NCBI RefSeq assembly: GCF_963921235.1
Contig: NC_086097.1
Span: 35,776,001-35,840,000, forward strand
DNA: 64,000 nt
Direction: 5' to 3'
Source: Mobula hypostoma
Lineage: Eukaryota
Of the stretch, positions 726 through 61,135 are shown in pieces. Each line of letters starts with the position of its first letter. The stretch's first letter is position 1. Position numbers and translations under genes: made by a program. The notes under the pieces are model-generated. The model made no database searches. It was not told the DNA's origin and saw only the letters and a list, made by a program, of their open reading frames with translations.

Positions 726-930
726 CAGATGCTGGAAATCTTGAGCAACACACACAAAATGCAGGGGGAGCTCAGCAGCTCAGAGACCATAAACAGTTAA
801 CATTTTGTGCTAAGGTCTGTCCTCAGTTACTGAAGAAGGGTCTTGTCCCAAAATGTCAACTGTTTACTTCTCTCTATAGATGCTGCCTGACCTGTTGCGT
901 TCCTTGTGCGTTTTTTTTTTGAGTACGTTT
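726..930. mobile_element. Degenerate fold-back mini-PLE (inverted terminal-repeat pair with hammerhead remnants)
   Basis: Minus-strand copy GCAGATGCTGGAAATC..ACACACAAAATG followed by plus-strand CTGAAGAAGGGTCTTGTCCCAAAATGTCAACTG..ATAGATGCTGCCTGACCTG. Confidence 0.75.
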
Positions 931-2884
931 CTCAGAAGGTTCCTATATTTTTTCCTCATACATTACCGCTAAAAACTTCTGACTGAAGCAATTGCATGTT
1001 GTTCTGCTAAACAAGTCTTTGCTTGGAAGACAACTCAAAAAATATTGTCCAAAGCAATGCAGGATTGAAAGTCGCTCTGGAACCAATTTGACCTACAGAA
1101 TAAGAAAGTGCCCTACTTCTCCTCATTGTACTAAAGCCAGGCAGGGATGGTTAGAAGCTCATACTGCTAGCTAGAATTGAGTGATTGGTGATAATAACTG
1201 CATCTAAAATTTCAGCTGCATATTTAACATTCATATACATTACAATCAGTAAAATGATAACACGAGAAGTGGTTTCATAATATGGTTTCATGGAACTATA
1301 TGGATCCTTAAATGTCATGAGCAAATGTGAATGAGGTAATATAATTTGTACAAGACATATAGCTGGTTTTTCATATGCTCTGCAGTTACACAATGAAGCA
1401 GGATCACCATTCCATGAGTAATGATGTGTGCAATGAACCAATTCACTCAATTCATCAACTCTTTGCAATATGATCCTGCACCATCTGCCTTCAAATTTCA
1501 TTTAAAGATAATAGATTTCTACAACTACACCGATCGACTAAAACAAATTTGTTTTTTTTTCCCGTCAATATTTTCATGTTTTTTGCTAGGAAGCAGAGAA
1601 AGGGAAACAGAGTCAGCGGGTTAATAGGAAGCATTGACAATAAATGAACAGCATCCTTCAACACATTTCTGTTCCCCCCCCATATCAATATCACAGATCT
1701 CCATTTACCCATTGCACTCATCTATGTCGCCATTTCCTTTGTTTCACAGCTGATTGACATGGAAGCCCTTGATGACATCTTTCACCTGGGTCCTTTCAGG
1801 ATGTGAGGGGTCTTATGCCACTACTCCTACCCCAAACAGGGATGTAACTGAGAAACTGCATCAAGATTTCTACATCAGTCACTTAAGACAAAACAGGTTA
1901 AAAATATTTTTTAAATATTAGAGCCATTTTCTATCTACACGTGTTTGTCCAAACTAGCTTTGCGTTGTTGGCTAGGAATTTGGGGCAAACATTTATACTA
2001 GGAGAAAATACTTACAGAATTCACTATGGCCAATCCACCCAATACCCCCTCTTTCCCACCCTCATACCCAAGTCCCAAAGCAAGCCAGCAACCCTGGAAA
2101 GTGCCAGGATCTCACTGGTGAGGTGGTGTCATCCCATCACTCAACCATCCATTTGTGCCAGAACTTCTCAGCAGAGTTAAATGACTGGTAATAATGCAAC
2201 AAGCCAGGAGATTTAGTTCCCAGTAGTAGGGCGAGAAATGGGCTTCACCGCCAGAATACTGTCTAGGTTGGTAATCAGCAAGACACTCCTCCAATCCAGA
2301 CAATTTCCATCCGGGAATGAAAATGAGCTACGGCTATAACTCCCATTCAGCAAGTTGGATTCAGAAACGAAACTCTTAAAGTCAACGTTCCTAGTTCCAC
2401 CATTCATTTTAAGTAAACTCCCATCATTTCACTCTGTCTTGTTATTTTTACTATTCTTTTTCATTGTGCATAGTTCTACAGGATTACTGCATCACCCCAT
2501 CATCAATGGAGTTAGCACCGTAGATCTGAAGGAATACAATTTTTATCAAAATGACACTTTATTGGATTCAGATTTTCCTATAGTCCCAGGCGATAAAATG
2601 TGCTGTCACCTTTTACAGCGAGAAATATACAATGGCAGGCATTTCACACATTAGCACATTAAGTTTGCAAGTGGTCTACTAACTACAGAATCCATTTTCA
2701 ATCCCTGGTCACCATTTCAATTGCTAATTATGTTAGTCATCGAGAGATTATTTTAAATCCTTTGTTTATTCCGGGAAACGTAAGAAAACAAACATTTGCT
2801 CTGATATATGGTGTCATTTATCTACCATTCAGTGCAACTGCAAAGGGTTTTACAGCTAGTCAAATTATTCTGAAATGCACTCAC

Positions 2885-3205
2885 TGTCGTCTTCATCTCA
2901 CACTGTCCCTCGGGGCCCAGAATGACTTGCTTCAACTCCACTTCTGTGTGCTCTGCAGTGGCTGATACATCAACATCAGATCTGCAGAGACAGGTGGAGA
3001 AGGAGGACTTGATGGGACAAGCAGGCAGGTAATTTGGGAGATATGTATTTATACCAGGCTTCTGAGTACTCCCAATACTAAGATTCAAGCTTTTCTATTG
3101 CATTGCAGGTACTCCCTTCACCATTTTGAGAAGTCGTGGGCTGGTGATTGTCAATGCTCAGTGGGACATAAAACTTTTGCAAGGAGGCTTTTGGGAGCAT
3201 CCTTA
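2885..3205 (-). mobile_element. Old RTE-like LINE 3' fragment
   Basis: Decayed similarity to an RTE C-terminus (KDA.K.SL region); recognised by eye only. Confidence 0.35.
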
Positions 3206-3214
3206 TGAAGATTT

Positions 3215-3441
3215 TTTAGGAGCAGCTCTTTCCCCTCTGCAATCAGATTTCTGAATAGAAAATGAACAAACCTATGAACACTATCTCAATATTTTTTGCT
3301 CTCTTTTTGCACTATTTAATTTAATTTTTATACAGTATATATTCTTATTAAATTTGAAATCTTTAAAATGTATTGCATGGTACTGCTGCCACAAAACAAC
3401 AAATTTCATGACATGTCAGTGATTTTAAATCTGATTCTGAA
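3215..3441 (+). mobile_element. Rex1/Babar-like LINE 3' tail
   Basis: AGCTCTTTCCCCTCTGCAATCAG..ACTGCTGCCACAAAACAACAAATTTCATGAC..CTGATTCTGA, as in the other copies. Confidence 0.75.
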
Positions 3442-3711
3442 TGTTGATCTGATAACCTCTTGCTGTGATGGAGCCAGAAATGAAAAAGTACTGTTTGGAA
3501 GTTTGTTTGATCGCTGGGCTTGGCAAAATCTTTGCAGGCATTTCTCCTCCGATCAAGAAGCCATCATCAGAGTGCAGCTGAAGGTGTTGTTTCCTCTGAA
3601 TACCGCCTTATATACTCCTCTGGGGTCTGAATGGATATTCATTAGACATCATGATCTGGTTGGCTGGTTCAAAACACTGCAGTAGAAGATTCTGATTGGC
3701 CAGCTTCACAG

Positions 3712-3992
3712 GAGGAGGGTGTCCTTTTATAGTGAAGATGAGGAATTTCTTTAGCCTGAGAGTATTGAATCTGTGGAATTCATTGCCACAGGCAGCTGTG
3801 AAGGCCAAGTCTTTAGGTATATTTAAGGCAGAGTCTGATAGATTCTTGATTGGTCAGGGCATAAAGGAATATGAGGGGGAAAGGCAGGAAATTGGGGCTG
3901 AGAGAAAAAAAAAAATCGATCAGCCATGATTAAATGGCGGAGCAGACTCGATGGGCCAAATGGTCTAATTCTGCTCCTATGTCTTATGGTCT
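3712..3992 (+). mobile_element. CR1 LINE 3' end
   Basis: MRNFFSLRVLNLWNSLPQ..IFKAESDRFL followed by the 3'UTR GCAGACTCGATGGGCC..CTGCTCCTATGTCTTATGGTC. Confidence 0.9.
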
Positions 3993-4021
3993 TTTGGAAG
4001 TGTTTGCTTTGCTGTCCGAGA

Positions 4022-4648
4022 TTACTGGCGATTCATTGATTGTTGAGATCGTAAGGTTTCATATACCAGGTCTAGGTCGATGGGTTTGTTAATGGATCCT
4101 TCTGTAAAGAACCACACTTCAAGAAATTCCTGCTCTTCTCTTGTTCTTGCTTGAATCAAGACTCTGGCTGTCATCCAGCTGAAATGGTGTCCTCCTTCAT
4201 CTTCATGAGCTGATACTATTAAGAGTGGGTCATGCCTTTTGCTCCCTAGCTGATGCTTGTGTGGCCTGGTCGATAGTTTTCTTCCTGTTTGACCAATGTA
4301 GCACTTGTCACAGTACTGGATTTTGTAGATAACATTTGTTCTATCAGTCATATTTTGTTGCACTTTGAGCTTTGATAGTTTTCTCCTCAAAGTTGCAGTC
4401 GTTTTGAGAGCAACTGTGATGCGTTGCTGAAACTTTCTTGCTCTCATTTCCGGGACGTTCTTTATGTATGGCAATACAACTTGCTTATTCATAGTTTGTA
4501 TATTCGGGTTTCTAACCTCGAGGCACCTTTGGATGAAGCTTCTTGAATATCTCTTCTGTTGAATGGTCTTGAAGAGGCTGCTTTCTACTTCCAGTTTTGT
4601 GTCTGTAGTGTTGCAATGGGACTCATACCTCTTGAATAAGATCTCCAC
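4022..4648 (-). pseudogene. PLE GIY-YIG endonuclease domain, 5'-truncated
   Basis: VIY..YIG motifs and R..EFLE.WF helix; no Cys-rich linker. Confidence 0.85.
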
Positions 4649-5704
4649 ATAGTTTTGTTTGTGACACTCCAGGTGATTGCTACTGAAGTTCAGAATTTGA
4701 TCGGTGTGTGCTCCTGTTTTGGAAATCTGAGGTCAGGCATGGAAGTATCATGGCCTGCCAAGCAGAGGGGCCAGTCAGTTCTAGACAATGGTCTGGGTGC
4801 AGTCCGTTTTATTGGATCGCTTATTCTGCCAGAGGATGTGGGAGATTTTTCACAGAAACAACTTTGTTACTCCTCTTGTGCTTTCCCCGGTCATGCTTGT
4901 GATGCGGGAAAGACAGCAGCCGGTTTTGGCGCAGTAGGAATCAAGAAATAGCAATGTATTAACGTCCAAATAATTTGTCTCAAAGACACTGTGGATAATT
5001 CCCCCTGCTCCATTAAAGATGGTGCTCGGGATCTTCCATGATCATCTTCCACCACTCAGCTTAACATCACATATAGGGCAGGCTTTTGTGGACAAGACTT
5101 TGGAATAAGGTTTGAAGCAGCATCCCTTCAATTTAAAGCCACCAGCTTAGTCTCATCTGAGACGTAAACCATCCACGATTTAAGAAGATATTGGAACTGC
5201 CTGTGGTTCCAATCAATGACTTCATTCAAATCAGACACATGCATTCCAGTGGGTTCTAGCTTGATGGCTTTCATCACATCAACTAACTTTTACACATCAC
5301 TGTATACCCATAGTTGCTGGCTCTCTGACATTTGATTTGTGTTCATTCTCAAAGGGTAAAAATCAGTAGTACAGAGAGCAACAAAAAAAACAACAAAACT
5401 GCAGTTTGTGATTTAAATTTTACCTCAAGTACACACTCTTTCTTTCTCCCAAAATAAGTCTAATGTGCCCAGTGGAAACTGTAAGATCTTAGACTGACAG
5501 TGACCTGCCCGGTTACTGGCCATTCATTTATACTTTAACAGATGTCTCTGCACAATTGCTCAGCTGTTCACTCTTACAAAGGAGAACAGGCCTAATTCAA
5601 ATTATGGTTCTGTAAGTGTCAACTATTTACCATTGATTGAAGCTCAAGTTAAGGCCAGCATTCTAGGGAACATTCAATAAAATTATTTAAGAAGGGAAGT
5701 AGGC

Positions 5705-7196
5705 AGAAGAAAGAAAATTATAGGCCACTTAGCCCATCAGAGGTTGGGAAGATGTTAGAATCAATTATTAAGGATGAGGTTTTGGGGTACTTGGAGGTGC
5801 ATGATGAAGTAGGCCAAAGTCACCATGGTTTCCGTAAGGGGAAATATTGCCTGAAACCTGTTGGAATTCTTTGAGGAAATAACAGGCAGAATAGACAAAG
5901 AAGAGTCAGTAGATGCTCTTTACTTAAAATTTCAGAAGGCCTTTGACAAGCTGCCGCACATGAAACGGCTTAACAAGATAAGACCCCATTTTATTACAGG
6001 AAAGATACTAGCATGGATAGAAGATTGGCAGGAAGCAAGGAGTGTGATCAAAGGGGGCCTATTGTTGTTGTTGCTGCCTGTGATAAGTGATGTTCCACAG
6101 GGGTCAGTATTGAGACCACTTCTTTTCAAGTCAATGATTTGGATGACAGAATTGATAGCTTTATGGCCAAGTTTGCAGATGCTACAAAAATAGGTGGAGG
6201 GGCAGGTAGTGTTGAGGAAGCAGGGAGTGCGTAGAGGGACTTTGACAGACTGGGAGAATGGACAAAGATATGTCAGATATAATATTGTGAAGGAAAGTAT
6301 GGTCATGCACTTTGGTAGAAGGAAAAAAGGTATAGACTATTTCTAACAGAGAAAATTCAAAAATCAGAGGTGCAAATGGACTTGGGAGTACTTAAGGTTA
6401 ACTTGCAGGTTAAGTCGGTTTAAGAGACTACTAGACAGGTATATGGAGGAATTTAAGGTGGGGGGTTATATGGGAGGCAGGGTTTGAGGGTCAGCACAAC
6501 ATTGTGGGCTGAAGGGCCTGTACTGTGCTGTACTATTCTATGTTTAAGGAAGGCAAATACAAAGTTAGCATTAAATTTGAGAGGAATAGAATACAAGAGC
6601 AAGTATGTGATGCTGAAGCTTTATAAGACTTTGGTCAGATCACACTTGCAGTATTGTGAACAGTTTTGGGCCCTTTATCTTAGAAGAGATATGCCAGCAT
6701 TGGAGAGGGTTTTTGAGGAGGTTCACGAGAATGATTCTGGGAATGAAAGGGTTAATGTATGAGGAGTGTTTGATACCTCTGGGCCAGTATTTGCTTGAGT
6801 TTAGGAGAATGAGGGGGAATCTCACTGAAACTTATTGAAAGGCTTAGGCAGAGTGGATGTGGAAAGAATGTTTCCGATAGTGGTTGAGTCTAGGACCAGA
6901 GGGCACAGCCTCAGAATAGAGGGACATCAATTGAGTACAGACATGAGGAAGAGGTTCTTTAGCCAGTGGGTGTTTAATCTGTGGAATTCACTGCTATGGA
7001 TGGCTGTGGAGGCCAAGTCATTGAGTATACTCAAAGCAGAGATTGATAGGTTCGTTAGTTGAGGCATCACAGGTTACAGGGAGAAGGAAGGAGAATGGGA
7101 TTGAGGGGGATAATAAACCAGCCATGATGGAATTGCAGGGTAGACTTGATCGGCCGAGTGGCCTAATTCTGCTTTTATGTCTCATGGTCTTGTAGT
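5705..7196 (+). mobile_element. CR1 LINE RT region to 3' end, degraded, with a younger CR1 tail nested at about 6419-6544
   Basis: FQKAFDK, VPQGSVL, KFADA, LYKTLVRSHLQYC, TRGHSLRI, FNLWNSL motifs with frameshifts. Confidence 0.9.
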
Positions 7197-12610: not shown

Positions 12611-13181
12611 ATTGGAACTGTTAACTTAGCTGGAACATAATAAGGTGCCTGACTGTGTAAACAAAGTGTGGTAAATCTATGTCTGAGAAATCCAGAAAAA
12701 AGGGCTTTCAAAATTTCCAGTAGGTTCCACTACATGCACATCAACCACTTCTCTCCACAGCCTCTCAGCAGCCTTCATCCAGCCGCCATGCACTGGCACT
12801 TTACACTTACACTCCACACCTCATATCTACACTGACACAGTCACTGTCCTACTGCACTTTCACATGCTGGAGATCTTCTTGCCAAGAGTCACTTTATCAT
12901 TTTCCTGTCAGAGTTATCTAACATTCAGATTCCCCTGCATTGTGTCTTGTCGCATTGCTGTTATATTTAGATTCATTGTGGGTCTTATTTTGATTTTTTT
13001 TTATTGTTCTTTATCCTTATTGTGTTTTTCTTTCCACTTCATCAGATCGGGAGTATCTATCATTTTGTTCTCTTTCACACTTGTACTGAAGAATGACAAT
13101 AACCAAGCTTGAATGTTCAGACAACACATCAAAGTTGCTGGTGAATGCAGCAGGCCAGGCAGCATCTCTAGGAAGAGGTAC

Positions 13182-13217
13182 AGTCGACGTTTCGGGCCGA
13201 GACCCTTCGTCAGGACT
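13182..13217 (-). ncRNA. Minimal type-I hammerhead ribozyme, intact core
   Basis: Reverse complement reads AGUC CUGACGA A GGG UCUCGG CCC GAAA CG UC GACU: stem I AGUC/GACU, stem II GGG/CCC, palindromic ACGU helix III, GUC cleavage triplet. Confidence 0.85.
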
Positions 13218-14401
13218 AACTGAAGGAAGAGCTAGTAAGAGATTTGGAAGCTGGAGGGGGAGGGGGAGATCCAAAATGGTAGGAGAAGACAGGAGGGGGA
13301 GGGATGGAGCCAAGAGCTGGACAGGTGATTGGCAAAGGGGATATGAGAGGATCATGGGACAGGAGGTCCGGGGAGAAAGACAAGGGAGGGGGGGAACCCA
13401 GAGGATGGGCAAGGGGTATAGTCAGAGGGACAGAGGGAGAAAAAGGAGAGTGAGAGAAAGAACGTGTGTATAAAAATAAATAACGGATGGGGTATGAGGG
13501 GGAGGTGGGGCATTAGCAGAAGTTAGAGAAGTTGATGTTCATGCCATCAGGTTGGAGGCTACCCAGACGGAATACAAGGTGTGGCCTTCTATATATTGGC
13601 GAGACCCGAAGCAGACTGGGAGACCGCTTTGCTGTCTCTCTGCTTTCCGCAGGGATCGCTCCTTACGCGACTCCCTTGTCCATTCGTCCCCCCCACCCCT
13701 CTCCACTGATCTCCTTCCTGGCACTTATCCTTGTAAGCGGAACAAATGCTACACATGCCCTTACACCTCCTCCCTCACCACCATTCAGAACCCCAGACAA
13801 TCCTTCCAGGTGAGGCGACACTTCACCTGTGAGTCGGCTGGGGTGATATACTGAGTCCAGTGCTCCCGATGTGGCTTTCTATATATTGGCGAGACCTGAC
13901 GCAGACTGGGAGACCGCTTTGCTGAACATCTACGCTCTGTCCGCCAGAGAAAGCAGGATCTCCCAGTGGCCACACATTTTAATTCCACATCCCATTCTGA
14001 CATGTCTATCCACGGCCTCCTCTACTGTAAAGATGAAGCCACACTCAGGTTGGAGGAACAACACCTTATATTCCATCTGGGTAGCCTCCAACCTGATGGC
14101 ATGAACATCGACTTCTCTAACTTCCGCTAATGCCTCACCTCCCCCTTGTACCCCATCTGTTATTTATTTTTATACACACATTCTTTCTCTCAGTCTGCTT
14201 TTTCTCCCTCTGTCCCTCTGACTATACCCCTTGCCCATCCTCTGGGTTCCCCCCCCTTGTCTTTCTCCCCGGACCACCTGTCCCATGATCCTCTCATATC
14301 CCTTTTGCCTATCACCTGTCCAGCTCTTGGCTCCATCCCTCCCCCTCCTGTTGGATCTCCCCCTCCCACTTTCAAATCTCTTACTAACTCTTCCTTCAGT
14401 T

Positions 14402-14437
14402 AGTCCTGACGAAGGGTCTCGGCCTGAAACGTCAACT
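14402..14437 (+). ncRNA. Minimal type-I hammerhead ribozyme (one stem I mismatch)
   Basis: AGTC CTGACGA AGGGTCTCGGCCT GAAA CGTC AACT. Confidence 0.75.
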
Positions 14438-14535
14438 GTACCTCTTCCTAGAGTTGCTGCCTGGCCTGCTGCGTTCACCAGCAACTTTGATGTGTGTTGC
14501 TTGAACTTCCAGCATCTGCAGAATTCCTGTTGTTC

Positions 14536-14758
14536 GAATGTTCAGAATTAGGGATGGAGCACTCTCTGCAGAGATGAAAGGAATTTTCTTCACCACTTCA
14601 GTAGAAAGTCTTTGGATTTCTCTATCCAAGAGAATTGTGGAGGCTCAGTCAGAGTATATAGAAGACAGCAATCCATAGTTTCTTAGATAATAGTGGAAGC
14701 AAAGAATATATGGTTGGTACAGGAAAGTAGAGCTGAGGTAAAAAAAAACAGCCACAAC
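14536..14758 (+). mobile_element. Old CR1 3' end hosting the PLE and hAT insertions (resumes at 16366-16385)
   Basis: AGAGATGAAAGGAATTTTCTTCAC..GTGGAGGCTCAGTC..CAGCCACAAC|CTTATTGAATG. Confidence 0.7.
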
Positions 14759-14929: not shown

Positions 14930-16007
14930 TATTTTTTCTCTCTCCTGTCTTTGGCATTTACTCATTCTTTGTAAACTCTATCTAGACTAATAGAACTTCC
15001 ATCTAATTGATAGCTTTTGATTCTCATTAACATATCGAAATGACATTCACCTAAGTCAATGGTTCCCAACCTCCGGGCCATGGACTGATACATTGCTGCA
15101 AAGAACCCAACATTTATGTGCTGGGTGGCATCTAATTAATTAGCTTGTTTATTTTGGCTTTTTTCTTAAAGATGTGCTGGGTGATTTCCGACTACCGCTG
15201 CACCCCTGCATTCTTTGCGGCAATGTATCGGTGCGCGGCCCGGAGGTTGGGGATCACTGAAACCGTTTCTCAGTTTGTTTTTGAGTTGACTCATTAGGCT
15301 AAAACCTCGCTCACAGTCCGCACTAGACGCAAGGTTCCCCCAATGTCCATCAACTGTGCAAAGTTGCAAAACTGTTCATTTTGAAGTACAAATGCCAGCA
15401 TTTGAGCAAGGTTTGAAATTGGTTTGGATTTAATTTTTTCTTGCACGGAAAATTTGAAATCATTAAACTGTCTAACTATTACAATATTTTCAGCTAGAAA
15501 ATCATGATATTTCAGCCATAAGGCATTAACTTGTTCATCACCAAATATGAAGTCACAATCTGCAATTGTGGAAAAATCAAAAGCTGGCCATTCTTGTACT
15601 TCAACTTACACCTCCTCTGGGTTTGATCGTTTTTGCTCTCGCTCATCTGCACTCAACCGTAACATGCGTAGTACTCCTGTAACGGGTAATGACGGGTTCT
15701 GTCACCTGAGCTTTTGTATACAGTCCAAATGCGATTTACTTGCCAAATGACGCTTCAAAAAGTCAAGTTTCCAAATATCATCCCACTTCTTTCCACTAGC
15801 AAATTTTCCAGCAACTTCCACATCATGACAATACAAACAGATAACTCCAGTTTCCGAATCATACATAAATATTTCTCGTAGCTGAACATTCATGACCTCA
15901 TGAGCTTTCGGTGTAGCGGTTTCTACTATTTTGTTAAGCCATTCAACTTTAAACAAATTTGCAGTTCTTTTGCGCTTCACGCCCTTCACTTCTTTTGAAT
16001 TTGACAT
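14930..16007 (-). pseudogene. hAT transposase remnant lacking the catalytic core
   Basis: ORF 15702-16007 (Zn finger) joined near 15606 to the C-terminal part (EVQEWPAFDF..CERGFS..DMLMRIK); stops and a frameshift. Confidence 0.8.
15057..15259. mobile_element. hAT (Charlie-like) MITE nested in the transposase remnant
   Basis: Long imperfect TIRs CAATGGTTCCCAACCTCCGGGCC..GATACATTGC / GCAATGTATC..GGCCCGGAGGTTGGGGATCACTG; no clean TSD. Confidence 0.85.
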
Positions 16008-22434: not shown

Positions 22435-23254
22435 TTTAAAAACGCAAACACGAGGAATCCTGCAGATGCTGGAAGTTCAAGCAACACACATCAAAGTTGC
22501 TGGTGAACGCAGCAGGCCAGGCAGCATCTCTAGGAAGAGGTACAGTCCACGTTTCGGGCCCAGACTCTTCGTCAGGACTAACTGAAAGAAGAGCTAGTAA
22601 GAGCTTTGGAAGTGGTAGGGGGAGGGGGAGATCCAAAATGATTGAGTCAGAGTCAAAATGTGGTTAAAAAGTCGAAGAGCTGAAGAAATACCACACATTT
22701 TAATTCCACGTCCCATTCCCATTCTGATATGTCTATCCACGCCCTCCTCAACTGCAAAGATGAAGCCACACTCAGGTTGGAGGAACAACACCTTATATTC
22801 CGTCTGGGTAGCCTCCAACCTAATGGCATGAACACTGACTTCTCAAACTTCCACTAATGCCCCACCTCCCACTCGTACCCCATCCGTTATTTATTTATAT
22901 ACACATTCTTTTTCTCTCTCTCTCCTTTTTCCTCTCTCTGGCCCTCTCACTATACCCCTTGCCCATCCTCTGGGTTTTCCCCCCCTCCCCCCTCTCCTTC
23001 TCCCTGGGCCTCCTGTCCCATGATCCTCTCATATCCCTTTTGCCAATCAATTGTCCAGCTCTTGGCTCCATCCCTCCTCCTCCTGTCTTCTCCTATCATT
23101 TCGGATCTCCCCCTGCCCCTCCCACTTTCAAATCTCTTACTCGCTCTTTCAGTTAGTCCTGACGAAGGGTCTCAGCCCGAAACTTCGACTGTACCTCTTC
23201 CTAGAGATGCTGCCTGGCCTGCTGCGTTCACCAGCAACTTTGGATGTGTGTTGC
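22435..23254 (-). mobile_element. Fold-back Neptune-type PLE with two opposed hammerheads, 15-bp TSD
   Basis: TTGAGCTACATTGAA at 22420-22434 and 23255-23269; hammerheads at 22544-22579 (minus, cleavage-site C to G) and 23155-23190 (plus). Confidence 0.92.
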
Positions 23255-25280: not shown

Positions 25281-25427
25281 GAAATCTCCCAGATCTGATG
25301 AAGGGTCTCGGGCGAGCATGACGACTGTTTAGTCCTTTCCATAGATGCTGCCTGACCTGCTAAGCTCCTCCAGCATTTTGTATCTGTTACTCTGAATTTC
25401 CAACTTATGCAGAATCTCCTGTGTTTA
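25281..25427 (+). mobile_element. Solo mini-PLE terminal repeat with decayed hammerhead
   Basis: CTGATGAAGGGTCTCGG at 25295; TSD TAAYTAAAACA at 25270-25280 and 25428-25438. Confidence 0.8.
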
Positions 25428-28034: not shown

Positions 28035-28205
28035 GGCAACATACATCAAAGTTGCTGGTGAACTTCAGTTAGTCCTGACGAAGGGTCTCGGCCTGAAACG
28101 TCGACTGCACCTCTTCCTATAGATGCTGCCTGGCCTGCTGCATTCACCAGCAACTTTGATGTATGTTGCTTGAATTTCCAGCATCTGCAGAATTCCTGTT
28201 GTTTG
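28035..28205 (+). mobile_element. 171-bp fold-back mini-PLE with hammerhead, 13-bp TSD
   Basis: CCCAACTTATTGA at 28022-28034 and 28206-28218; 27-bp perfect inverted repeat 28036-28062 / 28143-28169. Confidence 0.95.
28071..28106 (+). ncRNA. Minimal type-I hammerhead ribozyme, intact core
   Basis: AGTC CTGACGA AGG GTCTCGG CCT GAAA CG TC GACT. Confidence 0.85.
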
Positions 28206-29197: not shown

Positions 29198-29423
29198 AAA
29201 ACACACAAGAGATTCACAGATACAGGAAATTCAAGGCAACACACACGAAATGCTGGATGAACTCAACAGGTCAGGTTGCATCGATGGAAATGAATGAAAA
29301 GTCGATGTTTTTGTCTGAGACCCTTCTTTACGACTAAAAGGAAGGGGAAGATGTCAGAAGAAAAAGGTGGGGGAGAGGAAGGACGACAAGCTAGAAGGTG
29401 ATAGGTGAAGCCAGGTGGGTTGG
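29198..29423 (-). mobile_element. Solo PLE terminal repeat, decayed hammerhead near 29300-29335
   Basis: AGTCGATGTTTTTGTCTGAGACCCTTCTTACGACT; ATCTAAAAT on both flanks. Confidence 0.75.
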
Positions 29424-40594: not shown

Positions 40595-40980
40595 TTACTG
40601 CCCATCAGCTCCCTCTGATGCCCCTCCTCCTTCCGTTTCTTCAGTGGTCCTTTCCACTCTCCTATCAGATATCTTCTTTTTCGGCCCTTTACCTCTTCCA
40701 CCTACCACTTCCCAACTTCTCACTTAATTTCCCCCTCTTCCATCTAACCACCTTCCTTCTCAGAGGGTTCACCTGTCACCTGCCAGCTTGTCCTCTCCTT
40801 ACCCCACCTTCTTATTCTGGTTTCTTCCCCCTTCCTTTCCAGTCCTGATGAAGGGTCTCAGTCCAAAGCATCAACTCTTTCTTCCTTTCCAGTGAAGCTG
40901 CCTTCTCTTATCTGCTGAGTTCCTCCAACATTCTGTGTGTGCTGCTCTGGATTTCCAGCAACTGCAGAATCTCCTGTGTC
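40595..40980 (+). mobile_element. Solo PLE terminal repeat, hammerhead remnant 40841-40876
   Basis: Pyrimidine-rich tract, AGTCCTGATGAAGGGTCTCAGTCCAAAGCATCAACT, tail GGATTTCCAGCAACTGCAGAATCTC. Confidence 0.8.
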
Positions 40981-41441: not shown

Positions 41442-41664
41442 AAAGAGTCTGAAGATGCTGGAAACCTTAAACACACTTACACACACACACTCACAAATCT
41501 ATGGAAGGGAAATAGTTGACATTTCATGGCATTTTTCTAGCTCCTGTGCCCTTCCTTTCTAGTCCTGATGAAGGGTCTCGGTCTGAAACATCGACTGATA
41601 ATTCCTCTTCATAGCTGCTGCCTGACCTGCTGAGTTACTTCAGCACTGCGCATGTGTTGTTCCA
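41442..41664. mobile_element. Fold-back mini-PLE with hammerhead near 41561-41597
   Basis: AGTCCTGATGAAGGGTCTCGGTCTGAAACATCGACT; TSD CCTTACARCTT at 41431-41441 and 41665-41675. Confidence 0.8.
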
Positions 41665-43555: not shown

Positions 43556-43695
43556 AACGTGAGAAAATCTGCAGATGCTGGAAATCCAAGGCAACACACA
43601 CAAGATGCTGGAGAAACTCAGCAGATCAGGTAGCATCTATGGAAATTAATAAACAGTTGACGTTTCAGACCGAGAACCTTCCTCGGGACTTCATT
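43556..43695 (-). mobile_element. 140-bp solo mini-PLE beginning at the hammerhead, 9-bp TSD
   Basis: AATATTACA at 43547-43555 and 43696-43704; hammerhead remnant near 43655-43690. Confidence 0.85.
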
Positions 43696-44210: not shown

Positions 44211-45416
44211 TCGCAATTCCTCCATCTCTGCCACATCTGCTCTCAGGATGAGGCTTTTCATTCCAGGATGAAGGAGATGTCTTCCTTTTTTAAAGAAAGG
44301 GGCTTCCCTTCCTCCACCATCAACTCTGCTCTCAAATGCATCATATTCATGCACATCTGCTCTCACCCCATCCTCCCGCCACCCCACTAGGGATAGGGTT
44401 CCCCTTGTCCTCACCTACCACCCCACCAGCCTCCGGGTCAAACATATAATTCTCTGTATCTTCTGCCACCTCCAACGGGATCCCACCACCAAGCACATCT
44501 TTCCCTCCCCCCCTCTTTCTGCTTTCCACAGGGATCGCTCCCTACACGACTCCCTTGTCCATTCATCCCCCCCATCCCTTCCCACTGATCTCCCTCCCAG
44601 CACTTATCCTTGTAAGCGGAACAAGTGCTACACATGCCCTTACACTTCCTCCCTCACCACCATTCAGGGCCCCAGACAGTCCTTCCAGGTGAGGCGACAC
44701 TTCAGCTGTGAGTCGGCTGGGGTGATATACTGCATCCGGTGCTCCCGATGTGGCCTTCTATATATTGGCGAGACCCGACGCAGACTAGGAGACCGCTTTG
44801 CTGAACACCTACGCTCTGTCCGCCAGAGAAAGCAGGATCTCCCAGTGGCCACACATTTTAATTCCACGTCCCATTCCCATTCTGATATGTCTATCCACGG
44901 TCTCCTCTACTGTCAAGATGAAGTCACACTCAGGTTGGAGGAACAACACCTTATATTCCATCTGGGTAGCCTCCAACCTGATGGCATGAACACTGACTTC
45001 TCTAACTTCCGTTAATACCCCTCCTCCCCTTCACACCCCATCTATTATTTGTTTATTATTATGTATTTTTTTCCCCTTTCTTTTTCTCTCTCTTTTTTCT
45101 CCCTCTGTCCCTTTCACTATAACTCCTTGCCTGCTCTCCATCTTCCTCTGGTGCTCCTCTCCTCCCATCCCATGATCCTCTCCCTTCTCCAGCCTTGTAT
45201 CCCTTTTGCTAATCAACTGTCCAGCTCTTAGCTCCATCCCTCCTCTTCCTGTCTTCTCCTATCATTTCAGATCTCCCCCCTCCCACTTTCAAATCTCTTA
45301 CTATCTCTTCTTTCAGTTAGTCCTGACAAAGGGTCTCAGCCCGAAACGTCGACTGTACCTCTTCCTATAGATGCTGCCTGACCTGCTGCGTTCACCTGTA
45401 TTTTGTGTGGGTTGCT
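44211..45416 (+). mobile_element. Neptune-type PLE 3' part: RT thumb, Cys linker, open GIY-YIG frame, terminal repeat
   Basis: ORF 44689-45015 GVIYCIRCSRCGLLYIGETRRRLGDRFAEH..RLEEQHLI..L.PDGMN; hammerhead 45319-45354 (core G to A); ATTAATCT at 44203-44210 and 45417-45424. Confidence 0.92.
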
Positions 45417-45936: not shown

Positions 45937-46145
45937 ACACAAAATGCTGGAGCAACTTAGCAGGTCCAACAGCAACTATGGAGACGAATAAAGAGCCAAC
46001 TTTTCAGGTCCCGATGAAGGGTCTCAGCCCTAAATATCAATTCTTTATTCCTCTCCATAGATACAGTCTGAGTTCCTCCAAAATTTTCTCTGTGTGTGTA
46101 CTCTGGATTTCCAGCTTCTGTGGAATTTCTTGCATTTATGATTTA
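45937..46145. mobile_element. Fold-back mini-PLE, decayed
   Basis: TSD CTGGGTGWTACAC at 45924-45936 and 46146-46158; CCGATGAAGGGTCTCAGCCC. Confidence 0.75.
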
Positions 46146-49767: not shown

Positions 49768-49955
49768 ACCTTCTTACTCTGGCAGCTTCCCCCTACCTTT
49801 CCAGTCCTGATGTACGATCTCAGTCCGAAACATCGACTTAGATCTTAGGTCATTGACTTCTTCATCTCCATAGATGTTGCCTGATCTCCAGAGTTCGTCC
49901 AGCATTTTGTGTGTGTGACTCTGGATTTTCAACATCTACAGATTCTCTTGTACTT
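49768..49955 (+). mobile_element. Solo PLE terminal repeat, hammerhead remnant 49803-49838
   Basis: AGTCCTGATGTACGATCTCAGTCCGAAACATCGACT. Confidence 0.75.
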
Positions 49956-51143: not shown

Positions 51144-51608
51144 TACATACAAAATGCTGGAGGAACTCAGCAGGCCAGGCAGCATTAATGGAAAAGGGTG
51201 AACAGTTGGTGTTTCGGGCCGAGACCCTTCAGCAGAACTGGAGTAAAAAAGATGAGGAGCAGATGGGGGGAAGGGAGAGAGAAACACAAGGTGATAGATG
51301 AAGTCAGGAGAGGGAGGGGTGAAGTAACGAGCTGGGAAGTAGGTGGGTGAAAGAGATAAGGGCTGGAGAAGGAGGGGGGGATCTAATAGGAGAGGACAAA
51401 AGGCCATGGAAGAAAGAAAAGTGAGGAGGAGAACCAGAGGGCAGCCATGGGCAGGTAGGGAGATAAGGTGAGAGAGGACAAAGGGGATGGGGAATGGTGA
51501 AGGCGGGGGGGCATTACCGGAAGTTCGAGAAATCGATGTTCATGCCATCAGGTTGGAGGCTGTGCAGGCGGAATATAAGATGTTGCTCCTCCAACCTGAG
51601 TGTGGCCT
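51144..51608 (-). mobile_element. Neptune-type PLE 3' fragment
   Basis: Endonuclease C-terminus plus terminal repeat; hammerhead near 51204-51239; CATGARTTCARTAAA at 51129-51143 and 51609-51623. Confidence 0.85.
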
Positions 51609-54474: not shown

Positions 54475-54890
54475 GTAACACACACAAAATGCAGTTCAGG
54501 CAGTATCTATAGGAAGGAGTAAAAATTGGCAGCTTGGGCCACAACCTTTCATCCGGACTGGAAAAGAAGGGGAAAGAAGCTGGAGGAGGAAGGAGAGGAG
54601 GAGAGAAAGGAGAGGAGGAGAGAAGGAGAGGAGGAGAGGAAGAAGAGGAGGAGAGGAACCAGTACAGCTAGCAGGTGATAGGTGAAGCCAGCTGAGATGA
54701 AGTGAGAAGCTGGGAGGTGATAGGTGAAAGTGGTAATGGGCTAAAGAAGAAGGAATCTGTTAGGATAGGATAGTGGATCACAGGAGAAAGGGAATGAGGA
54801 GGGGAACCAGAGAGAAGTGAGGGGCAAGTGAAGTGAAGGATAAGAGGGAAGACAGAAAGTGGAATAGAAAAAGAGAGAAGGGAGAGGGTT
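54475..54890 (-). mobile_element. PLE terminal repeat with expanded (GGAGA) purine repeat at 54581-54657
   Basis: ACACACAAAATG..CTTTCATCCGGACTGG..GGTGATAGGTGAAG. Confidence 0.7.
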
Positions 54891-58432: not shown

Positions 58433-60291
58433 ACACACAAAATGCTGGAGGAGTTCAGCCTGCCAGGCAGCGTCTATGGAAAAAAAGTACAGTCGACATT
58501 TTGGGCCGAGACCCTTTGGCAGGAGAAAAAAAGGTGAGGAGTAGATTTAAAAGGTGAGGGGAGAGAGAAACACAAGGTGATAGGTGAAACTGGGAGGGGG
58601 AGGGATGAAGTAAAGAGCTGAGAAGTTGATTGGTGAAAGAGATACAGGGCTGAAGGGGGGAGTCTGATACAAGAGGACAGAAGGCCATGGAAGAAAGAAA
58701 AGGTGGGGAGGCGCACCAGAGGGAGGCGATTGGCAGGCAAGGAGATAAGGTGAGAGAGGGAAAAGGGGATGGGGAATGGTTAAGCGGGGGGCCATTACCA
58801 GAAGCTGGAGAAATCGATGTTCATGCCATCAGGTTGAAGGCTAGCCAGAGGGAATATAAGGAGTAGTTCCTCCAATCTGAGTGTGGCCTCACCACAACAG
58901 TAGAGGAGGCTATGGATTGACTTATTGGAATGGGAATGGGAAGTGGAATTAAAATGGGTGGCCACTGGGAGATCCCGCTTTATCTGGTGGATGGAGCGTA
59001 AGTGCTTGTGACGTGGTCTCCCAATTTATGTTGGGTCTCACTGATATACAGGAGGCCACAACTGGAGTACCAGCCCCAGTATGACCCCAACTCAAAGGTG
59101 AAGTGTCACTTCACCTGGAAGGTCTGTTTGGGGCCCTGAATGGTAGTGAGGGAGCAGGTGGAGGTGCAGTTGTAGCATTTGTTCCGCTTGCAAAGATAAG
59201 TGCCAGGAGGGAAGATGTGCTTGGTGGTGGGATCCCGTTGGGGATGGCGTGTTCCAGAGGGTTATGTGCTTCTCATGGAGGCTGGTGGGGTGGTAGGTGA
59301 GGACAGGAGGAACCCTATCCGTGGTAAGGTTGCTGGAGGATGGGGTGAGAACAGACGTGCGTGATATGGAAGAGATGCAGTTGAATGCAGTGTCGATGGT
59401 GGAGGAAGGGAAGCCCCTTTCTTTGAAAAAGGAGGACATCTCCTTCGTTCTGAAATGAAGTCTCATCCTGAGAGCAGATGCGGCAGAAATGGAGGAATTG
59501 AGAGAAGGGAATGGCATTTTTACAAGTAACAGGGTGTGAGGAGGTATATTCCAGGTAACTGTGAGAGTCTGTGGGTTTATAAGACTTCAGTAGATAAGCT
59601 GTCTCCAGAGATAGAGACAGAGAGATCGAGAAAAGTGAGGGAGGTGTCGGAAATGGACCAGATAAATTTGAGGGCAGGGTGTAAGTTGGAGGCAAAGTTG
59701 ATGAAGTCGCTGATCTCCGCATGGATGCAGGAAGTAGTACCAATGCAGTTGTCAATGTCGTGCAGGAAAAGTAGGGGAGTGACACCAGTATAGGCTTGGA
59801 ACATGGACTGTTCTACATAGCCAACATAAAGGCAGGCATAGCTGGGACCCATGTGAGTGCCCATGGCTACACCTTTTGTTTGAAGGAAGTGGGAGGAGCC
59901 AAAGGAGAAATTATCAAGAGTGAGGACACATTCCACTAGATGGAGGAGAGTGGAGGTGGAGGGGAATTGGTTGGGTCTGGTGTCCAGAAAGAAACGGAGA
60001 GCTTTGAGACCTTCCTGGTTGGGGATGGAAATGTATAGGGACTGGACATCCATAGTGAAAATAAGGTGATGGGGGCAGGGAACCTGAAATTATTGAAAAG
60101 ATCCAGAGCGTGTGAAGTTTCACGGATGTAGGTAGGAAGGGAATGAACTCGGGGGGGACAAAACAGAGTCGAGGTATGCAGACATGAGTTCAGTGGGGCA
60201 GGAGGGTCTACCTGGACAAGCGGGTTTGTGGATCTTGGGTAAGGGGTAGAAGTGGGAGGTGCAGGGTGCGGGAACTATGAGGTTGGTGGCA
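58433..60291 (-). mobile_element. Neptune-type PLE with RT core, linker, GIY-YIG and terminal repeat; 15-bp TSD
   Basis: FYPLPKIHKP, MDVQSLYISIP, QTKGVAMGT..GPSYACL, HDIDN (decayed YIDD), YKPTDSHSYL; GTGGAGYTAGGCATT at 58418-58432 and 60292-60306. Confidence 0.93.
59577..60053 (-). pseudogene. PLE reverse transcriptase core with inactivated catalytic motif
   Basis: D..SLY, G.AMG motifs; YIDD read as DIDN. Confidence 0.9.
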
Positions 60292-60774: not shown

Positions 60775-61135
60775 ATTTCCCACTCTCGCCTCTTACCTCT
60801 TCTCCTCACCTGCCTATCACCTCCTTCTGGTGCCCTCCTTCCTTTCCTTTTTCCATGGTCCACTCTCATCTCCTATACGATTCTTTCTTCTCCAGCCTTT
60901 TACCTTTCTCGCCCTCTTGGCTTCACCTATCACCTTGTCGCTGGTCTTCCTTCCCTTTCCCCCACTTTTATATTCTGACATCTTCCCCCTTCCTCATCAG
61001 TCCTGAAGAATGGTCTTGCCCCAAAACATCAAATGTTTATTCAGTTCCATAGATGCTGCCTGAGCTGCTAAGTATCTCCACCATTTTGTGTGGGTTGATC
61101 TGAATTTCCAGCATCTACAGAATCTCTTGTGTAAA
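60775..61135 (+). mobile_element. Solo PLE terminal repeat, hammerhead remnant near 60999-61034
   Basis: AGTCCTGAAGAATGGTCTTGCCCCAAAACATC; tail GAATTTCCAGCATCTACAGAATCTCTTGTG. Confidence 0.75.

What the first reader, a model, noticed from the sequence alone, without database searches (positions are those of the whole stretch)
13182..13217. Hammerhead ribozyme in the terminal repeat of a high-copy Penelope-like family (more than 15 copies in 64 kb)
Seen: the minus strand reads AGUC CUGACGA A GGG UCUCGG CCC GAAA CG UC GACU, i.e. the full CUGAnGA/GAAA/UH core closed by stems I and II. Helix III is only the palindrome ACGU. Homologous motifs lie at about 825, 14402, 22544, 23155, 25292, 28071, 29300, 40841, 41561, 43655, 45319, 46007, 49803, 51204, 54530, 58491 and 60999. 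Established: PLE terminal repeats carry minimal type-I hammerheads thought to cleave as dimers through such palindromes. Inference: at this density the genome would carry very many ribozyme copies, which could cut read-through transcripts if two copies pair.
Basis: partly seen in the sequence, partly recalled or inferred. Interest (0 to 1): 0.85.

Follow-up and report, generated by a model that had tools for sequence, protein, structure and literature searches.

The report
Minimal hammerhead ribozyme in Penelope retrotransposon
The flagged 36 bases are a minimal hammerhead ribozyme motif in a hugely amplified Penelope-like retrotransposon of a cartilaginous fish; this kind of motif is already known, but here it is unusually abundant.

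Summary
All 17 other listed positions are homologous copies. Only 5 window copies keep intact core boxes, and only 2 pass a full minimal-hammerhead descriptor.

The motif belongs to a Penelope-like element that encodes a reverse transcriptase, a CX4CX2C linker and a GIY-YIG endonuclease. It lies about 297 nt after the ORF stop and 66 nt before the next ORF's first ATG. The focal copy sits in the inverted, 5'-truncated arm of one composite insertion (13122-14535) flanked by an 11-bp target duplication.

The held 3.48-Gb genome has 101,032 matches within 2 mismatches of the 33-mer, and 44,925 exact matches to that 33-mer with C or T allowed at 11.1.

This matches the minimal, dimer-dependent hammerheads described by Cervera and De la Pena (2014), so it is a new member of a known kind.

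Cleavage could not be tested. Several results limit what it could do:
- 507 of 516 copies carrying the ORF 5' end keep the upstream hammerhead.
- At most about 1% of tails start at the cut site.
- An older subfamily carries a core A6-to-C change.
- No covariation above shuffles was found.
- No Rfam hammerhead model matches.

The parts
13182..13217 (-). Focal minimal type-I hammerhead motif. Helix I 5' strand, CUGACGA, bulged A, helix II GGGU-CUCG-GCCC, GAAA, ACGU palindrome, C17, helix I 3' strand. Predicted cut between 13186 and 13185.
   Evidence: Sequence read. Passes the full descriptor. Monomer and dimer folds.
13122..13582 (-). Inverted, 5'-truncated arm of the composite insertion. It holds the last ~21 codons of the ORF, the 3' UTR, the hammerhead and an ~84-nt tail that ends at the canonical 3' end.
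   Evidence: Inverted repeats I1-I3, 94-96% complementary to 14061-14495. Self-BLAST. tblastn 13581-13519 minus strand. Boundary.
13574..14127 (+). C-terminal ORF fragment (GIY-YIG endonuclease region) of the forward copy, with a 290-bp internal duplication (13580-13634 repeated at 13870-13924).
   Evidence: tblastn to P0001-P0014, 38-76% identity. Direct repeat D1.
14402..14437 (+). Hammerhead motif of the forward copy. Core boxes are intact, 11.1 is U, and position 1.1 is G-to-A, which breaks the innermost helix-I pair.
14438..14535 (+). Tail of the forward copy plus the 38-nt extension. In full-length copies this extension is the continuation toward the ORF start. It is present at this end only.
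   Evidence: Alignment. Comparison with L017 2210-2317. Boundary.
13111..13121 (.). Left copy of the 11-bp target-site duplication GAATGTTCAGA.
   Evidence: flank print-out.
14536..14546 (.). Right copy of the 11-bp target-site duplication GAATGTTCAGA.
28071..28106 (+). The second fully intact hammerhead motif in the window (11.1 = U, the main genomic form). A short inverted tail fragment (28031-28063) precedes it.
22544..22579 (-). Young-subfamily copy. C17 is changed to G and helix II is altered. It forms an inverted pair with 23155.
23155..23190 (+). Young-subfamily copy. Core boxes are intact, but 16.2 is G-to-U, so the palindrome is lost. An ORF end lies at 22693-22866.
45319..45354 (+). 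Young-subfamily copy with G8-to-A. It lies downstream of ORF fragment 44211-45024, which scores on Pfam GIY-YIG (22.7 bits, cut-off 22.6).
41561..41596 (+). Older-subfamily copy (N7 = U, 16.2 = A). Core boxes are intact and there is no palindrome.
51204..51239 (-). Copy of the subfamily with CUGCUGA (A6-to-C). An ORF end lies at 51505-51612.
58489..58524 (-). Decayed copy of the A6-to-C subfamily, downstream of an RT plus EN ORF remnant with frameshifts (58804-60326).
791..865 (.). Head-to-head (fold-back) pair of decayed motifs, joined at the 5' edge of the hammerhead (826- and 830+).
43655..43690 (-). Decayed older copy (U4-to-C).
60999..61034 (+). Decayed older copy (G12-to-A and other changes).
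25292..25327 (+). Decayed older copy (GAAA box lost).
29300..29335 (-). Decayed older copy.
40841..40876 (+). Decayed older copy.
46008..46043 (+). Decayed older copy with an inverted partial arm just upstream (46011-45931).
49803..49838 (+). Decayed older copy.
54524..54559 (-). Decayed older copy.

Best explanation
The 36 nt are a minimal, helix-III-less type-I hammerhead ribozyme motif (min-HHR). They belong to a Penelope-like retrotransposon (PLE) that looks Neptune-like, because it has a CX4CX2C linker before the GIY-YIG endonuclease.

Shown here:
- The element's repeating unit is about 3.5 kb. Its order is hammerhead, 65-nt leader, 1043-aa RT-EN ORF, about 297-nt 3' UTR, then the next hammerhead.
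- DNA copies end 84 nt after the predicted cut, or 38 nt further on when they carry the tail extension. Most copies are extremely 5'-truncated, so the hammerhead-plus-tail is the most abundant part of the element.
- The focal copy lies in the inverted, 5'-truncated arm of a single insertion with an 11-bp target duplication.

Inferred from published work on PLE min-HHRs:
- A single copy cannot form helix III.
- Two sense copies form a domain-swapped double hammerhead. The 5' part of one copy (helix I 5' strand, core, helix II, A15.1-C15.2) pairs with the 3' part of the other (G16.2-U16.1, C17, helix I 3' strand). Each then cuts after GUC, probably slowly and with help from the element's protein.

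Inferred from the genomic record here:
- Cleavage does not define the 5' end of the RNA that is reverse-transcribed. Templates carry an uncut or religated hammerhead upstream of the ORF.
- The motif's likely job is therefore to process multi-unit transcripts. This may give unit-length RNAs that are circularised and copied more than once round.

Nearly all genomic copies, including most in this window, are dead fossils.

The confidence given is for the identity of the motif and element and for the general mechanism. That this particular RNA cleaves in vivo I would put at roughly even odds.
For: Motif and chance
- exact motif; 2 full-descriptor hits in the window against 0 in 100 shuffles.

PLE context
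- ORF fragments end 267-300 bp upstream on the same strand in five window copies.
- Window ORF 44272-45015 scores 22.7 bits on Pfam GIY-YIG, cut-off 22.6.
- Its best relatives are uncharacterised RT/GIY-YIG proteins of rays and sharks. The top hit is 77% identical.
- Full copy L017 has direct repeats 1095-2283 and 4615-5797 (98.8% identical). Its motifs are at 2178-2213 and 5697-5732, 3519 nt apart. Its ORF is 2272-5400, and the insertion ends at 5797.
- The L017 ORF carries YIDD, CKRNKCYTC and LYIGET.

PLE-type insertion anatomy (passages of PMC8557442)
- An inverted 5'-truncated arm.
- The tail extension at one end only.
- A target-site duplication.

Min-HHR traits named in PMC4209133 are all present in the focal copy.

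Abundance (reversed-pattern control 0 in every genome search)
- 101,032 matches within 2 mismatches.
- 44,925 exact matches, with C or T allowed at 11.1.
- The hammerhead-plus-tail profile gave 32 hits in 120 kb of arbitrarily placed genome and 24 in the 64-kb window.
- 130,839 first-look candidates for the PLE protein. Of the 50 that were scored, 46 had no internal stop, and open frames ran up to 1102 aa.

Conservation
- N7 is the least conserved position in the hammerhead block, as hammerhead rules predict. The alignable block begins at the 5' edge of helix I.

Templates uncut or religated
- 507 of 516 copies that carry the ORF 5' end keep T-Y at positions -2/-1.

Multi-unit or circular templates
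- L017 is 1.34 units long.
- L018 is one insertion of 4.1 tandem 310-bp units, each starting with the motif. It is flanked by a 13-bp duplication and ends at the canonical 3' end.
Against: - No experiment or RNA data: self-cleavage is not shown for this sequence.
- Rfam 15 gives no hammerhead match at gathering score on the whole window, at E up to 10 on 601 nt, or on 71 nt.
- Across 34 copies, helix I, helix II and an alternative helix show no covariation above shuffled controls. 160 of 500 shuffles reach the observed percentage paired.
- The hammerhead block is no better conserved than the 50 nt after it. Mean commonest-base fractions are 0.743 against 0.744 and 0.757 over 47 copies. Its conservation could therefore reflect the whole 3' module.
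- Nearest-neighbour energies favour inactive folds. The monomer MFE pairs G5-A6-C7-G8 with C15.2-G16.2-U16.1-C17 (-13.5 kcal/mol). The extended duplex is -35.3, against -17.9 for the active double hammerhead.
- The main genomic form has G10.1-U11.1 instead of the usual G-C. This holds for 84 of the first 100 exact matches.
- An older subfamily carries A6-to-C. Seven copies in my 184-kb sample share it, and 1,424 genome matches fit a CpG-tolerant pattern. That subfamily still amplified. The statement that A6 changes cripple hammerheads is recalled, not taken from a call.
- Older N7 = U/A copies mostly read ACAUC, with no palindrome.
- In young copies, core and non-core non-CpG sites have diverged alike: 4 changes in 500 cells against 11 in 1000. 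This is a hand tally of the 100 sequences listed.
Confidence: 0.75

Rival explanations
1. The motif is kept as part of a larger conserved 3'/5' terminal RNA module and not for catalysis. That module would serve RT recognition, the internal RT start, the leader and the ORF start. The hammerhead similarity is ancestral, but self-cleavage is dispensable or lost in this lineage. The motif could even be a passenger on the element.
For: - The hammerhead block is no better conserved than the adjacent tail.
- The A6-to-C subfamily amplified.
- Older subfamilies lack the 15.2/16.2 palindrome.
- Predicted folds favour an inactive rod.
- Copies are made from RNAs with an uncut hammerhead.
- Passages of PMC11167929 report that hammerhead mutants do not affect insertion in vitro, and that no RNA-seq reads end at the cut site in Anolis.
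- Passages of PMC8557442 note that Naiad PLEs thrive without hammerheads.
Against: - The youngest and most successful subfamily keeps every core position, the bulged base and the ACGU palindrome.
- N7 is the one free position.
- The Anolis motif does cleave when its protein is added.
Confidence: 0.2
2. The hammerhead defines the 5' end of the linear retrotransposition template, as HDV-like ribozymes do for R2 elements. Full-length copies should then begin at G1.1.
For: - The motif sits just upstream of the ORF, 66 nt before the first ATG.
- The analogy with R2 is described in passages of PMC6765202.
Against: - Only 9 of 516 copies carrying the ORF 5' end lack T at position -2.
- Only 2,228 of about 110,771 young tails have a non-T at -2. 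About half of the first 100 of those still keep C17 (hand tally). So at most about 1% of tails start at the cut.
Confidence: 0.03
3. The match is a chance resemblance to the hammerhead core in a repeat that has nothing to do with ribozymes.
For: No Rfam hit. No covariation.
Against: - Full-descriptor hits: 2 in the window against 0 in 100 shuffles.
- The motif shows all four non-descriptor traits of PLE min-HHRs.
- It sits at the place in a PLE where such motifs are described.
Confidence: 0.02

Closest known systems
Minimal hammerhead ribozymes (min-HHR) of Penelope-like elements (Cervera and De la Pena 2014, PMC4209133). Dimer cleavage by Lunse et al. is known to me only from its citation in PMC6765202.
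   Same: - Type-I topology with no helix III loop, and a palindrome at 15.1-16.1.
- Helix I of 4-5 bp.
- An unpaired base between A9 and 10.1.
- G10.1-C11.1 in the focal copy.
- Location in the terminal repeats of an RT plus GIY-YIG element.
- Frequent inverted pairs 100-700 bp apart, and many solitary truncated copies.
   Different: - Helix II is only 4 bp here; the paper reports 7-8 bp for Schistosoma and 6 bp for D. virilis.
- The dominant genomic form has G10.1-U11.1.
- Copy number is far higher than the paper's figures of about 4,000 (coelacanth) and 9,000 (Xenopus).
- I did not see a cartilaginous-fish example in the text I read. The paper's supplements were not opened.
Poseidon element of Anolis carolinensis (PAc) and its protein-assisted hammerhead (PMC11167929, passages only)
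   Same: - The hammerhead lies at the pLTR-ORF junction.
- DNA copies end at an internal RT start site, leaving a tail signature.
- Cleavage is not needed for copying.
   Different: [quoted passage not shown] Here the first in-frame ATG lies 66 nt after the cut.
- This element has the CX4CX2C linker named for the Neptune and Nematis clades.
Non-LTR retrozymes of animals (PMC7229834 passages; bioRxiv 10.64898/2026.07.22.740005, abstract and part 1 of 2 of the Results)
   Same: Locus L018 elsewhere in this genome is a tandem array of 310-bp units. Each unit has a type-I hammerhead and no full ORF, and the array is flanked by a target duplication longer than 4 bp.
   Different: - The finding itself is an autonomous-element copy, not a retrozyme.
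- The 310-bp unit is a recent deletion derivative of the PLE, found at only two loci.
- Circular RNA was not tested.
Rfam hammerhead families (type I, II, III, HH9, HH10; names recalled)
   Same: Same catalytic core boxes.
   Different: No Rfam model matches, even at E up to 10. The likely reason is that the models expect a helix III.

Membership tests
Hammerhead ribozyme, minimal PLE type (min-HHR) | Core boxes C3-U4-G5-A6-N7-G8-A9, G12-A13-A14 and U16.1-H17 in order and at the right spacing | tested here: met
   (CUGACGA ... GAAA ... UC). Descriptor hit.
Hammerhead ribozyme, minimal PLE type (min-HHR) | Helix I of at least 4 bp flanking the core (type-I topology) | tested here: met
   AGUC/GACU plus a U-G pair.
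Hammerhead ribozyme, minimal PLE type (min-HHR) | Helix II closed by a loop, with a G10.1-C11.1 pair | tested here: met
   The focal copy has GGGU-CUCG-GCCC. In the main genomic form 11.1 is U, giving a G-U pair: 84 of the first 100 exact matches.
Hammerhead ribozyme, minimal PLE type (min-HHR) | One unpaired nucleotide between A9 and 10.1 | tested here: met
   An A at that place. It was unchanged in all 100 listed copies (hand tally).
Hammerhead ribozyme, minimal PLE type (min-HHR) | No helix III loop; palindromic 15.1-15.2/16.2-16.1 that allows a dimer | tested here: met
   ACGU in the focal copy and the young subfamily. Not met in most older N7 = U/A copies, which read ACAU.
Hammerhead ribozyme, minimal PLE type (min-HHR) | Compensatory changes that keep helices I and II | tested here: inconclusive
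   83.2% of cells paired against 82.8% in shuffles. The helices hardly vary other than by decay.
Hammerhead ribozyme, minimal PLE type (min-HHR) | Site-specific self-cleavage after H17 | not testable with these tools
   No RNA run on record. Folding energies do not favour the active dimer.
Rfam hammerhead families | Score at or above the family's gathering threshold | tested here: not met
   No hammerhead family listed.
Penelope-like elements (EN+, C-terminal endonuclease) | C-terminal GIY-YIG endonuclease | tested here: met
   Window ORF 44272-45015 scores 22.7 bits, cut-off 22.6. The L017 ORF scores 21.1 bits, below cut-off, but carries LYIGET...RF.EH.
Penelope-like elements (EN+, C-terminal endonuclease) | Reverse transcriptase domain N-terminal to the endonuclease | tested here: inconclusive
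   RVT_1 scores 24.3 bits, E 3e-5, below the 29.6 cut-off for the L017 ORF. A YIDD motif is present. Relatives P0006 and P0014 reach the cut-off. No PLE-specific RT profile or phylogeny was run.
Penelope-like elements (EN+, C-terminal endonuclease) | Pseudo-LTRs from partial tandem copies, adjacent inverted 5'-truncated copies, and a 30-40-bp tail at one end | tested here: met
   L017 direct repeats. Window inverted arms. The 38-nt extension on one arm only. The features are as described in PMC8557442.
Neptune/Nematis-type PLEs | [quoted passage not shown] | tested here: met
   CKRNKCYTC lies upstream of the GIY-YIG motif in the L017 ORF. The clade was not tested by a tree.
Non-LTR retrozymes | Short tandem units, each with a type-I hammerhead and no ORF, expressed as circular RNA | tested here: inconclusive
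   Not the finding itself. L018 has 4.1 units of 310 bp. Circular RNA cannot be tested here.

The most novel reading that the evidence does not exclude
This genome may preserve a readable record that Penelope-like elements are copied from hammerhead-processed, religated circular RNAs by going round the circle more than once.

Three observations fit that model:
- 98% of copies that reach the ORF start also carry the hammerhead and sequence upstream of it.
- One sampled full-length copy (L017) is longer than one unit, at 1.34 units.
- A 310-nt deletion derivative was inserted as 4.1 tandem units within a single target duplication. Its units alternate GUU and GUC, as a two-unit circle would give.

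With about 10^5 intact motifs and many open 1043-aa ORFs, the species would be a natural system for testing the long-open question of what PLE hammerheads do.
Probability: 0.25. Interest if true: 0.7.

Novelty: new member of a known kind. Interest (0 to 1): 0.38.

Why it matters
What the hammerheads in Penelope-like elements do has been open since 2014. Published in vitro activity is weak. One study finds cleavage dispensable for insertion, and whole PLE clades lack the motif.

This family is young. In copies with exact flanks, non-CpG divergence is about 1%. It has many uninterrupted ORFs and is extremely numerous, so it offers large natural sample sizes.

The counts made here already exclude one simple model, that the ribozyme sets the 5' end of the copied RNA. 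They point instead to multi-unit or circular templates.

For genome annotation, these motifs are invisible to Rfam. About 0.2 hammerhead-derived motifs per kb are therefore going unlabelled in this genome. By extrapolation from 23 in 120 kb, that is several hundred thousand in total.

Tried and rejected
**Rfam.** Searches at the gathering threshold and at E up to 10 found no hammerhead family.

**RNA evidence.** No RNA holder was listed. All 23 runs are Logan contigs of guessed type, so I did not lay reads and have no expression or end data.

**Covariation.** The test over 34 copies was not above shuffles.

**Fold-back junctions at the cut site.** I looked for cDNA fold-backs as a footprint of cleaved templates. 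The pattern was the reverse-complement tail anchor, a 20-50 nt gap, then the tail anchor, and it gave 986 sites. Reading the 50 listed sites by hand, only 2 are perfect palindromes centred on the cut. Three more have one arm starting at +1 or -1, and the rest are scattered from -29 to +2. Recurrent micro-homology joins occur, for example CTAGGAAG|GGTCTCGG. The gap range biases this sample toward the cut site, so I draw no conclusion from it.

**Linkage ratio.** The count of tail plus upstream hammerhead anchor over the count of tail alone was 73,486 / 110,771 = 0.66. Cross-checking the two lists by hand over the first 3 Mb, 59 of 100 tails were linked. At least 8 of the 41 unlinked tails still have an exact hammerhead 33-mer. 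The ratio therefore mixes fold-back junctions, variants and indels, and cannot locate breakpoints.

**Wider unbiased genome sample.** The density estimates rest on 12 stretches of 10 kb.

**Compensatory N7/16.2 pairing.** I considered a compensatory N7/16.2 pairing (C-G in young copies, U-A in older ones) as support for an alternative inactive helix. I rejected it because the N7 = A copies also have A at 16.2.

**Literature.** The Lunse et al. paper is not held, and I know it only from a citation. Supplements of PMC4209133 and of the 2026 preprint were not opened. They may list cartilaginous-fish motifs or counts.

**Earlier notes of this scan.** None were found.
Full report
**Observation**

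One search shows that the minus strand of window 13182-13217 reads AGTCCTGACGAAGGGTCTCGGCCCGAAACGTCGACT. Parsed as RNA, it contains:
- helix I, AGUC/GACU, which becomes 5 bp with the flanking U-G pair;
- the core C3-U4-G5-A6-C7-G8-A9;
- one unpaired A;
- helix II, GGGU/GCCC, closed by CUCG;
- G12-A13-A14;
- A15.1-C15.2-G16.2-U16.1 with no loop;
- C17.

The predicted cut lies between 13186 and 13185.

All 17 were recovered by an nhmmer profile of the hammerhead-plus-tail built from the window's own copies (24 hits in the window). They also align.

The motif is not a chance match:
- The loose pattern gave 16 matches against 4.3 expected.
- My descriptor asks for the core boxes, helix I of at least 4 bp, helix II of at least 3 bp and a 15.2/16.2 pair. 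It found 5 core-intact and 2 fully passing copies. In 100 dinucleotide shuffles the means were 0.59 and 0.

Most listed copies are decayed, chiefly by CpG transitions. The two fully intact copies, 13217(-) and 28071(+), are on opposite strands.

**What the repeat is**

tblastn with relatives of the window's ORF finds RT/endonuclease fragments on the same strand as the motif. They end 267-300 bp upstream of it in five copies: 14402+, 23156+, 45317+, 51238- and 58526-. A sixth ORF fragment at 48034-48207(+) has no motif within about 1.6 kb.

ORF 44272-45015 reaches the Pfam GIY-YIG cut-off, at 22.7 against 22.6 bits. Its nearest database relatives are uncharacterised proteins of a stingray (77% identity) and of sharks, plus longer RT-plus-GIY-YIG proteins.

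The window's own genome is held: 3.476 Gb, with the window on contig C1. A search with a 906-aa relative gave 130,839 first-look candidates. Of the 50 that were scored, 46 had no internal stop, and open frames ran up to 1102 aa.

One such locus, L017, shows the whole architecture:
- direct repeats 1095-2283 and 4615-5797, 98.8% identical;
- the motif at 2178-2213 and again at 5697-5732, 3519 nt apart;
- a 1043-aa open frame at 2272-5400, whose first ATG (2275) is 66 nt after the predicted cut, with a second ATG at 2353;
- about 297 nt between the stop codon and the next motif;
- the 3' end of the insertion 84 nt after the second cut.

The protein carries YIDD, a CKRNKCYTC linker and CGLLYIGETRRRLGDRFAEH. 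Pfam RVT_1 and GIY-YIG score just below their cut-offs for this copy. The linker motif is the one that passages of PMC8557442 name for the Neptune and Nematis clades. I did not build a tree.

**The focal copy**

Window 13122-14535 is a single composite insertion. It is bounded by an 11-bp duplication, GAATGTTCAGA, at 13111-13121 and 14536-14546.

It has two parts:
- A forward, 5'-truncated copy with its ORF end, 3' UTR and motif at 14402. It also has the tail plus a 38-nt extension, and a 290-bp internal duplication.
- Head-to-head with it, an inverted and shorter copy (13122-13582). This arm holds the focal motif and ends at the canonical 3' end, without the extension.

This is the arrangement described for PLEs: an inverted 5'-truncated copy, and a 30-40-bp tail at one end only (PMC8557442 passages). 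In L017 the 38-nt extension is simply the sequence that continues toward the ORF start.

**Abundance**

The reversed-pattern control was 0 in every genome search.

| Pattern | Matches |
|---|---|
| 33-mer, up to 2 mismatches | 101,032 |
| 33-mer exact, C or T at 11.1 | 44,925 |
| Young-subfamily tail 24-mer | 110,771 |

The focal copy's C at 11.1 is the minority form. Of the first 100 exact matches listed, 84 have T there.

In 12 arbitrarily placed 10-kb stretches the hammerhead-plus-tail profile hit 32 times. The window gave 24 hits in 64 kb, so it is not exceptional. Of those 32 hits, 23 include the hammerhead region and 4 pass the full descriptor. Extrapolated roughly, that is about 0.9 million module copies, about 0.7 million hammerhead-derived motifs, and about 10^5 intact ones.

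For scale, the papers I read quote about 4,000 (coelacanth) and 9,000 (Xenopus) min-HHRs. They quote 126,247 type-I hammerheads in the 28-Gb axolotl genome (genome size).

**Does the sequence behave like a hammerhead in evolution?**

Only partly. Across 47 copies of all subfamilies the alignable block starts at the 5' edge of helix I, and upstream sequence differs between subfamilies. N7 is the least conserved position in the hammerhead block. Both points fit a hammerhead.

The hammerhead block as a whole is no better conserved than the next 50 nt, with mean commonest-base fractions of 0.743 against 0.744 and 0.757. Helices I and II show no covariation above shuffled controls.

Among 100 young copies selected only by their flanks (tallied by hand):
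- 41 are identical to the main form, and 5 more differ only by C at 11.1.
- Changes are overwhelmingly CpG transitions.
- Non-CpG core sites have 4 changes in 500 cells. Non-core sites have 11 in 1000.

This is what neutral decay after insertion should look like.

An older subfamily reads CUGCUGA, an A6-to-C change. Seven copies in my 184-kb sample share it, and 1,424 genome matches fit a CpG-tolerant pattern. Older N7 = U/A copies mostly read ACAUC, which is not palindromic.

Rfam has no model that sees any of these motifs.

**How it would work**

In a single copy, 15.2 and 16.2 are adjacent, so helix III cannot form. Two sense copies can form a nested, domain-swapped dimer. The 5' part of one copy pairs with the 3' part of the other through helix I (5 bp each way) and ACGU/ACGU. 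That gives two active sites (structure written out).

Nearest-neighbour energies do not favour this fold:
- active double hammerhead: -17.9 kcal/mol;
- two monomer hairpins: -13.5 each, in which G5-A6-C7-G8 pairs with C15.2-G16.2-U16.1-C17;
- extended duplex: -35.3.

This agrees with published reports of weak in vitro activity. It also agrees with the Anolis Poseidon motif, which cleaves only when its protein is added. Nothing here shows cleavage of this RNA.

**What the DNA copies say about the template**

If cleavage set the 5' end of the copied RNA, copies reaching the ORF start should begin at G1.1. They do not. Using an anchor just inside the ORF, beyond the tail extension, 507 copies keep T-Y at positions -2/-1 and 9 do not.

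Among about 110,771 young tails, 2,228 have a non-T at -2. Of the first 100 of those listed, 52 still keep C17, 19 have T and 29 have A or G at -1 (hand tally). So at most about 1% of tails start at the cut.

The RT therefore reads through an uncut or religated hammerhead. L017 is 1.34 units long.

Locus L018 is one insertion, flanked by a 13-bp duplication and ending at the canonical 3' end. It consists of 4.1 tandem 310-bp units. Each unit is the motif, the leader and the first part of the ORF. The units alternate GTT and GTC at the cut site. The deletion junction of that unit occurs 6 times in the genome, at two loci. Other short spacings (285 and 435 bp) appear in the list.

These facts fit two models:
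- templates that are transcripts of tandem copies;
- unit-length RNAs that are cut, ligated into circles and copied more than once round, as Cervera and De la Pena proposed.

I cannot tell the two apart.

**Verdict**

The motif is a new member (cartilaginous fish, Neptune-like PLE) of a known kind, the PLE min-HHR.

The added value of this case is the scale and youth of the family. The genomic record also excludes a role in defining the 5' end of the copied RNA.

Noticed in passing
L018 (G000:C2:157816301-157817800), and C50:58412482-58412815: A single insertion of 4.1 tandem 310-bp units. Each unit is the hammerhead, the leader and the first part of the PLE ORF. The insertion is flanked by a 13-bp duplication (TTATCTAATTTTA) and ends at the element's canonical 3' end. 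Units alternate GTT and GTC at the cut site. The unit's deletion junction occurs only 6 times in the genome, at two loci. It looks like a nascent retrozyme-like derivative.
   Followed up: partly
window 51204-51239(-), 58489-58524(-); L005 8290, L011 594 and 7043, L003 1388, L007 2530: An older subfamily whose motif reads CUGCUGA (core A6-to-C) and has its own tail signature. A CpG-tolerant pattern gives 1,424 genome matches. It amplified despite a change at a core position.
   Followed up: partly
window 791-865, 45931-46043, 28031-28106; L003 1297-1510, L007 8479-8666, L004 1763-1934: Head-to-head fold-back pairs whose junction lies at or just inside the 5' edge of the hammerhead. In the genome-wide list, close pairs are mostly minus-then-plus, and the same micro-homology join (CTAGGAAG|GGTCTCGG) recurs at 3 of 50 listed sites. 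This suggests snap-back of the cDNA near the ribozyme core.
   Followed up: partly
window 13580-13634 and 13870-13924: A 290-bp tandem duplication inside the endonuclease-coding part of the forward copy. The LYIGET-coding 55-mer is repeated at 95% identity.
   Followed up: no
G000 genome-wide (one search list): The dominant form of the motif has U at 11.1, giving a G10.1-U11.1 wobble where hammerheads usually keep G-C. The copies I read with a long open ORF (L013, L015, L016, L017) carry this form.
   Followed up: partly
window 15056-15105 and 15211-15260: A 50-nt inverted repeat (84% complementary, 105 nt apart) unrelated to the Penelope-like family. It may be a small fold-back element.
   Followed up: no
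window 13182-13217(-) and all young copies: The thermodynamically preferred monomer fold pairs G5-A6-C7-G8 with C15.2-G16.2-U16.1-C17. This would hide both the core and the cut site. GUCGAC around the cut is itself a palindrome.
   Followed up: partly
(coded runs): Half or more of the stretch's sampled 31-mers are held in runs labelled as two coded organisms. Smaller shares are held in several others, so close relatives of this family probably occur in more than one species.
   Followed up: no
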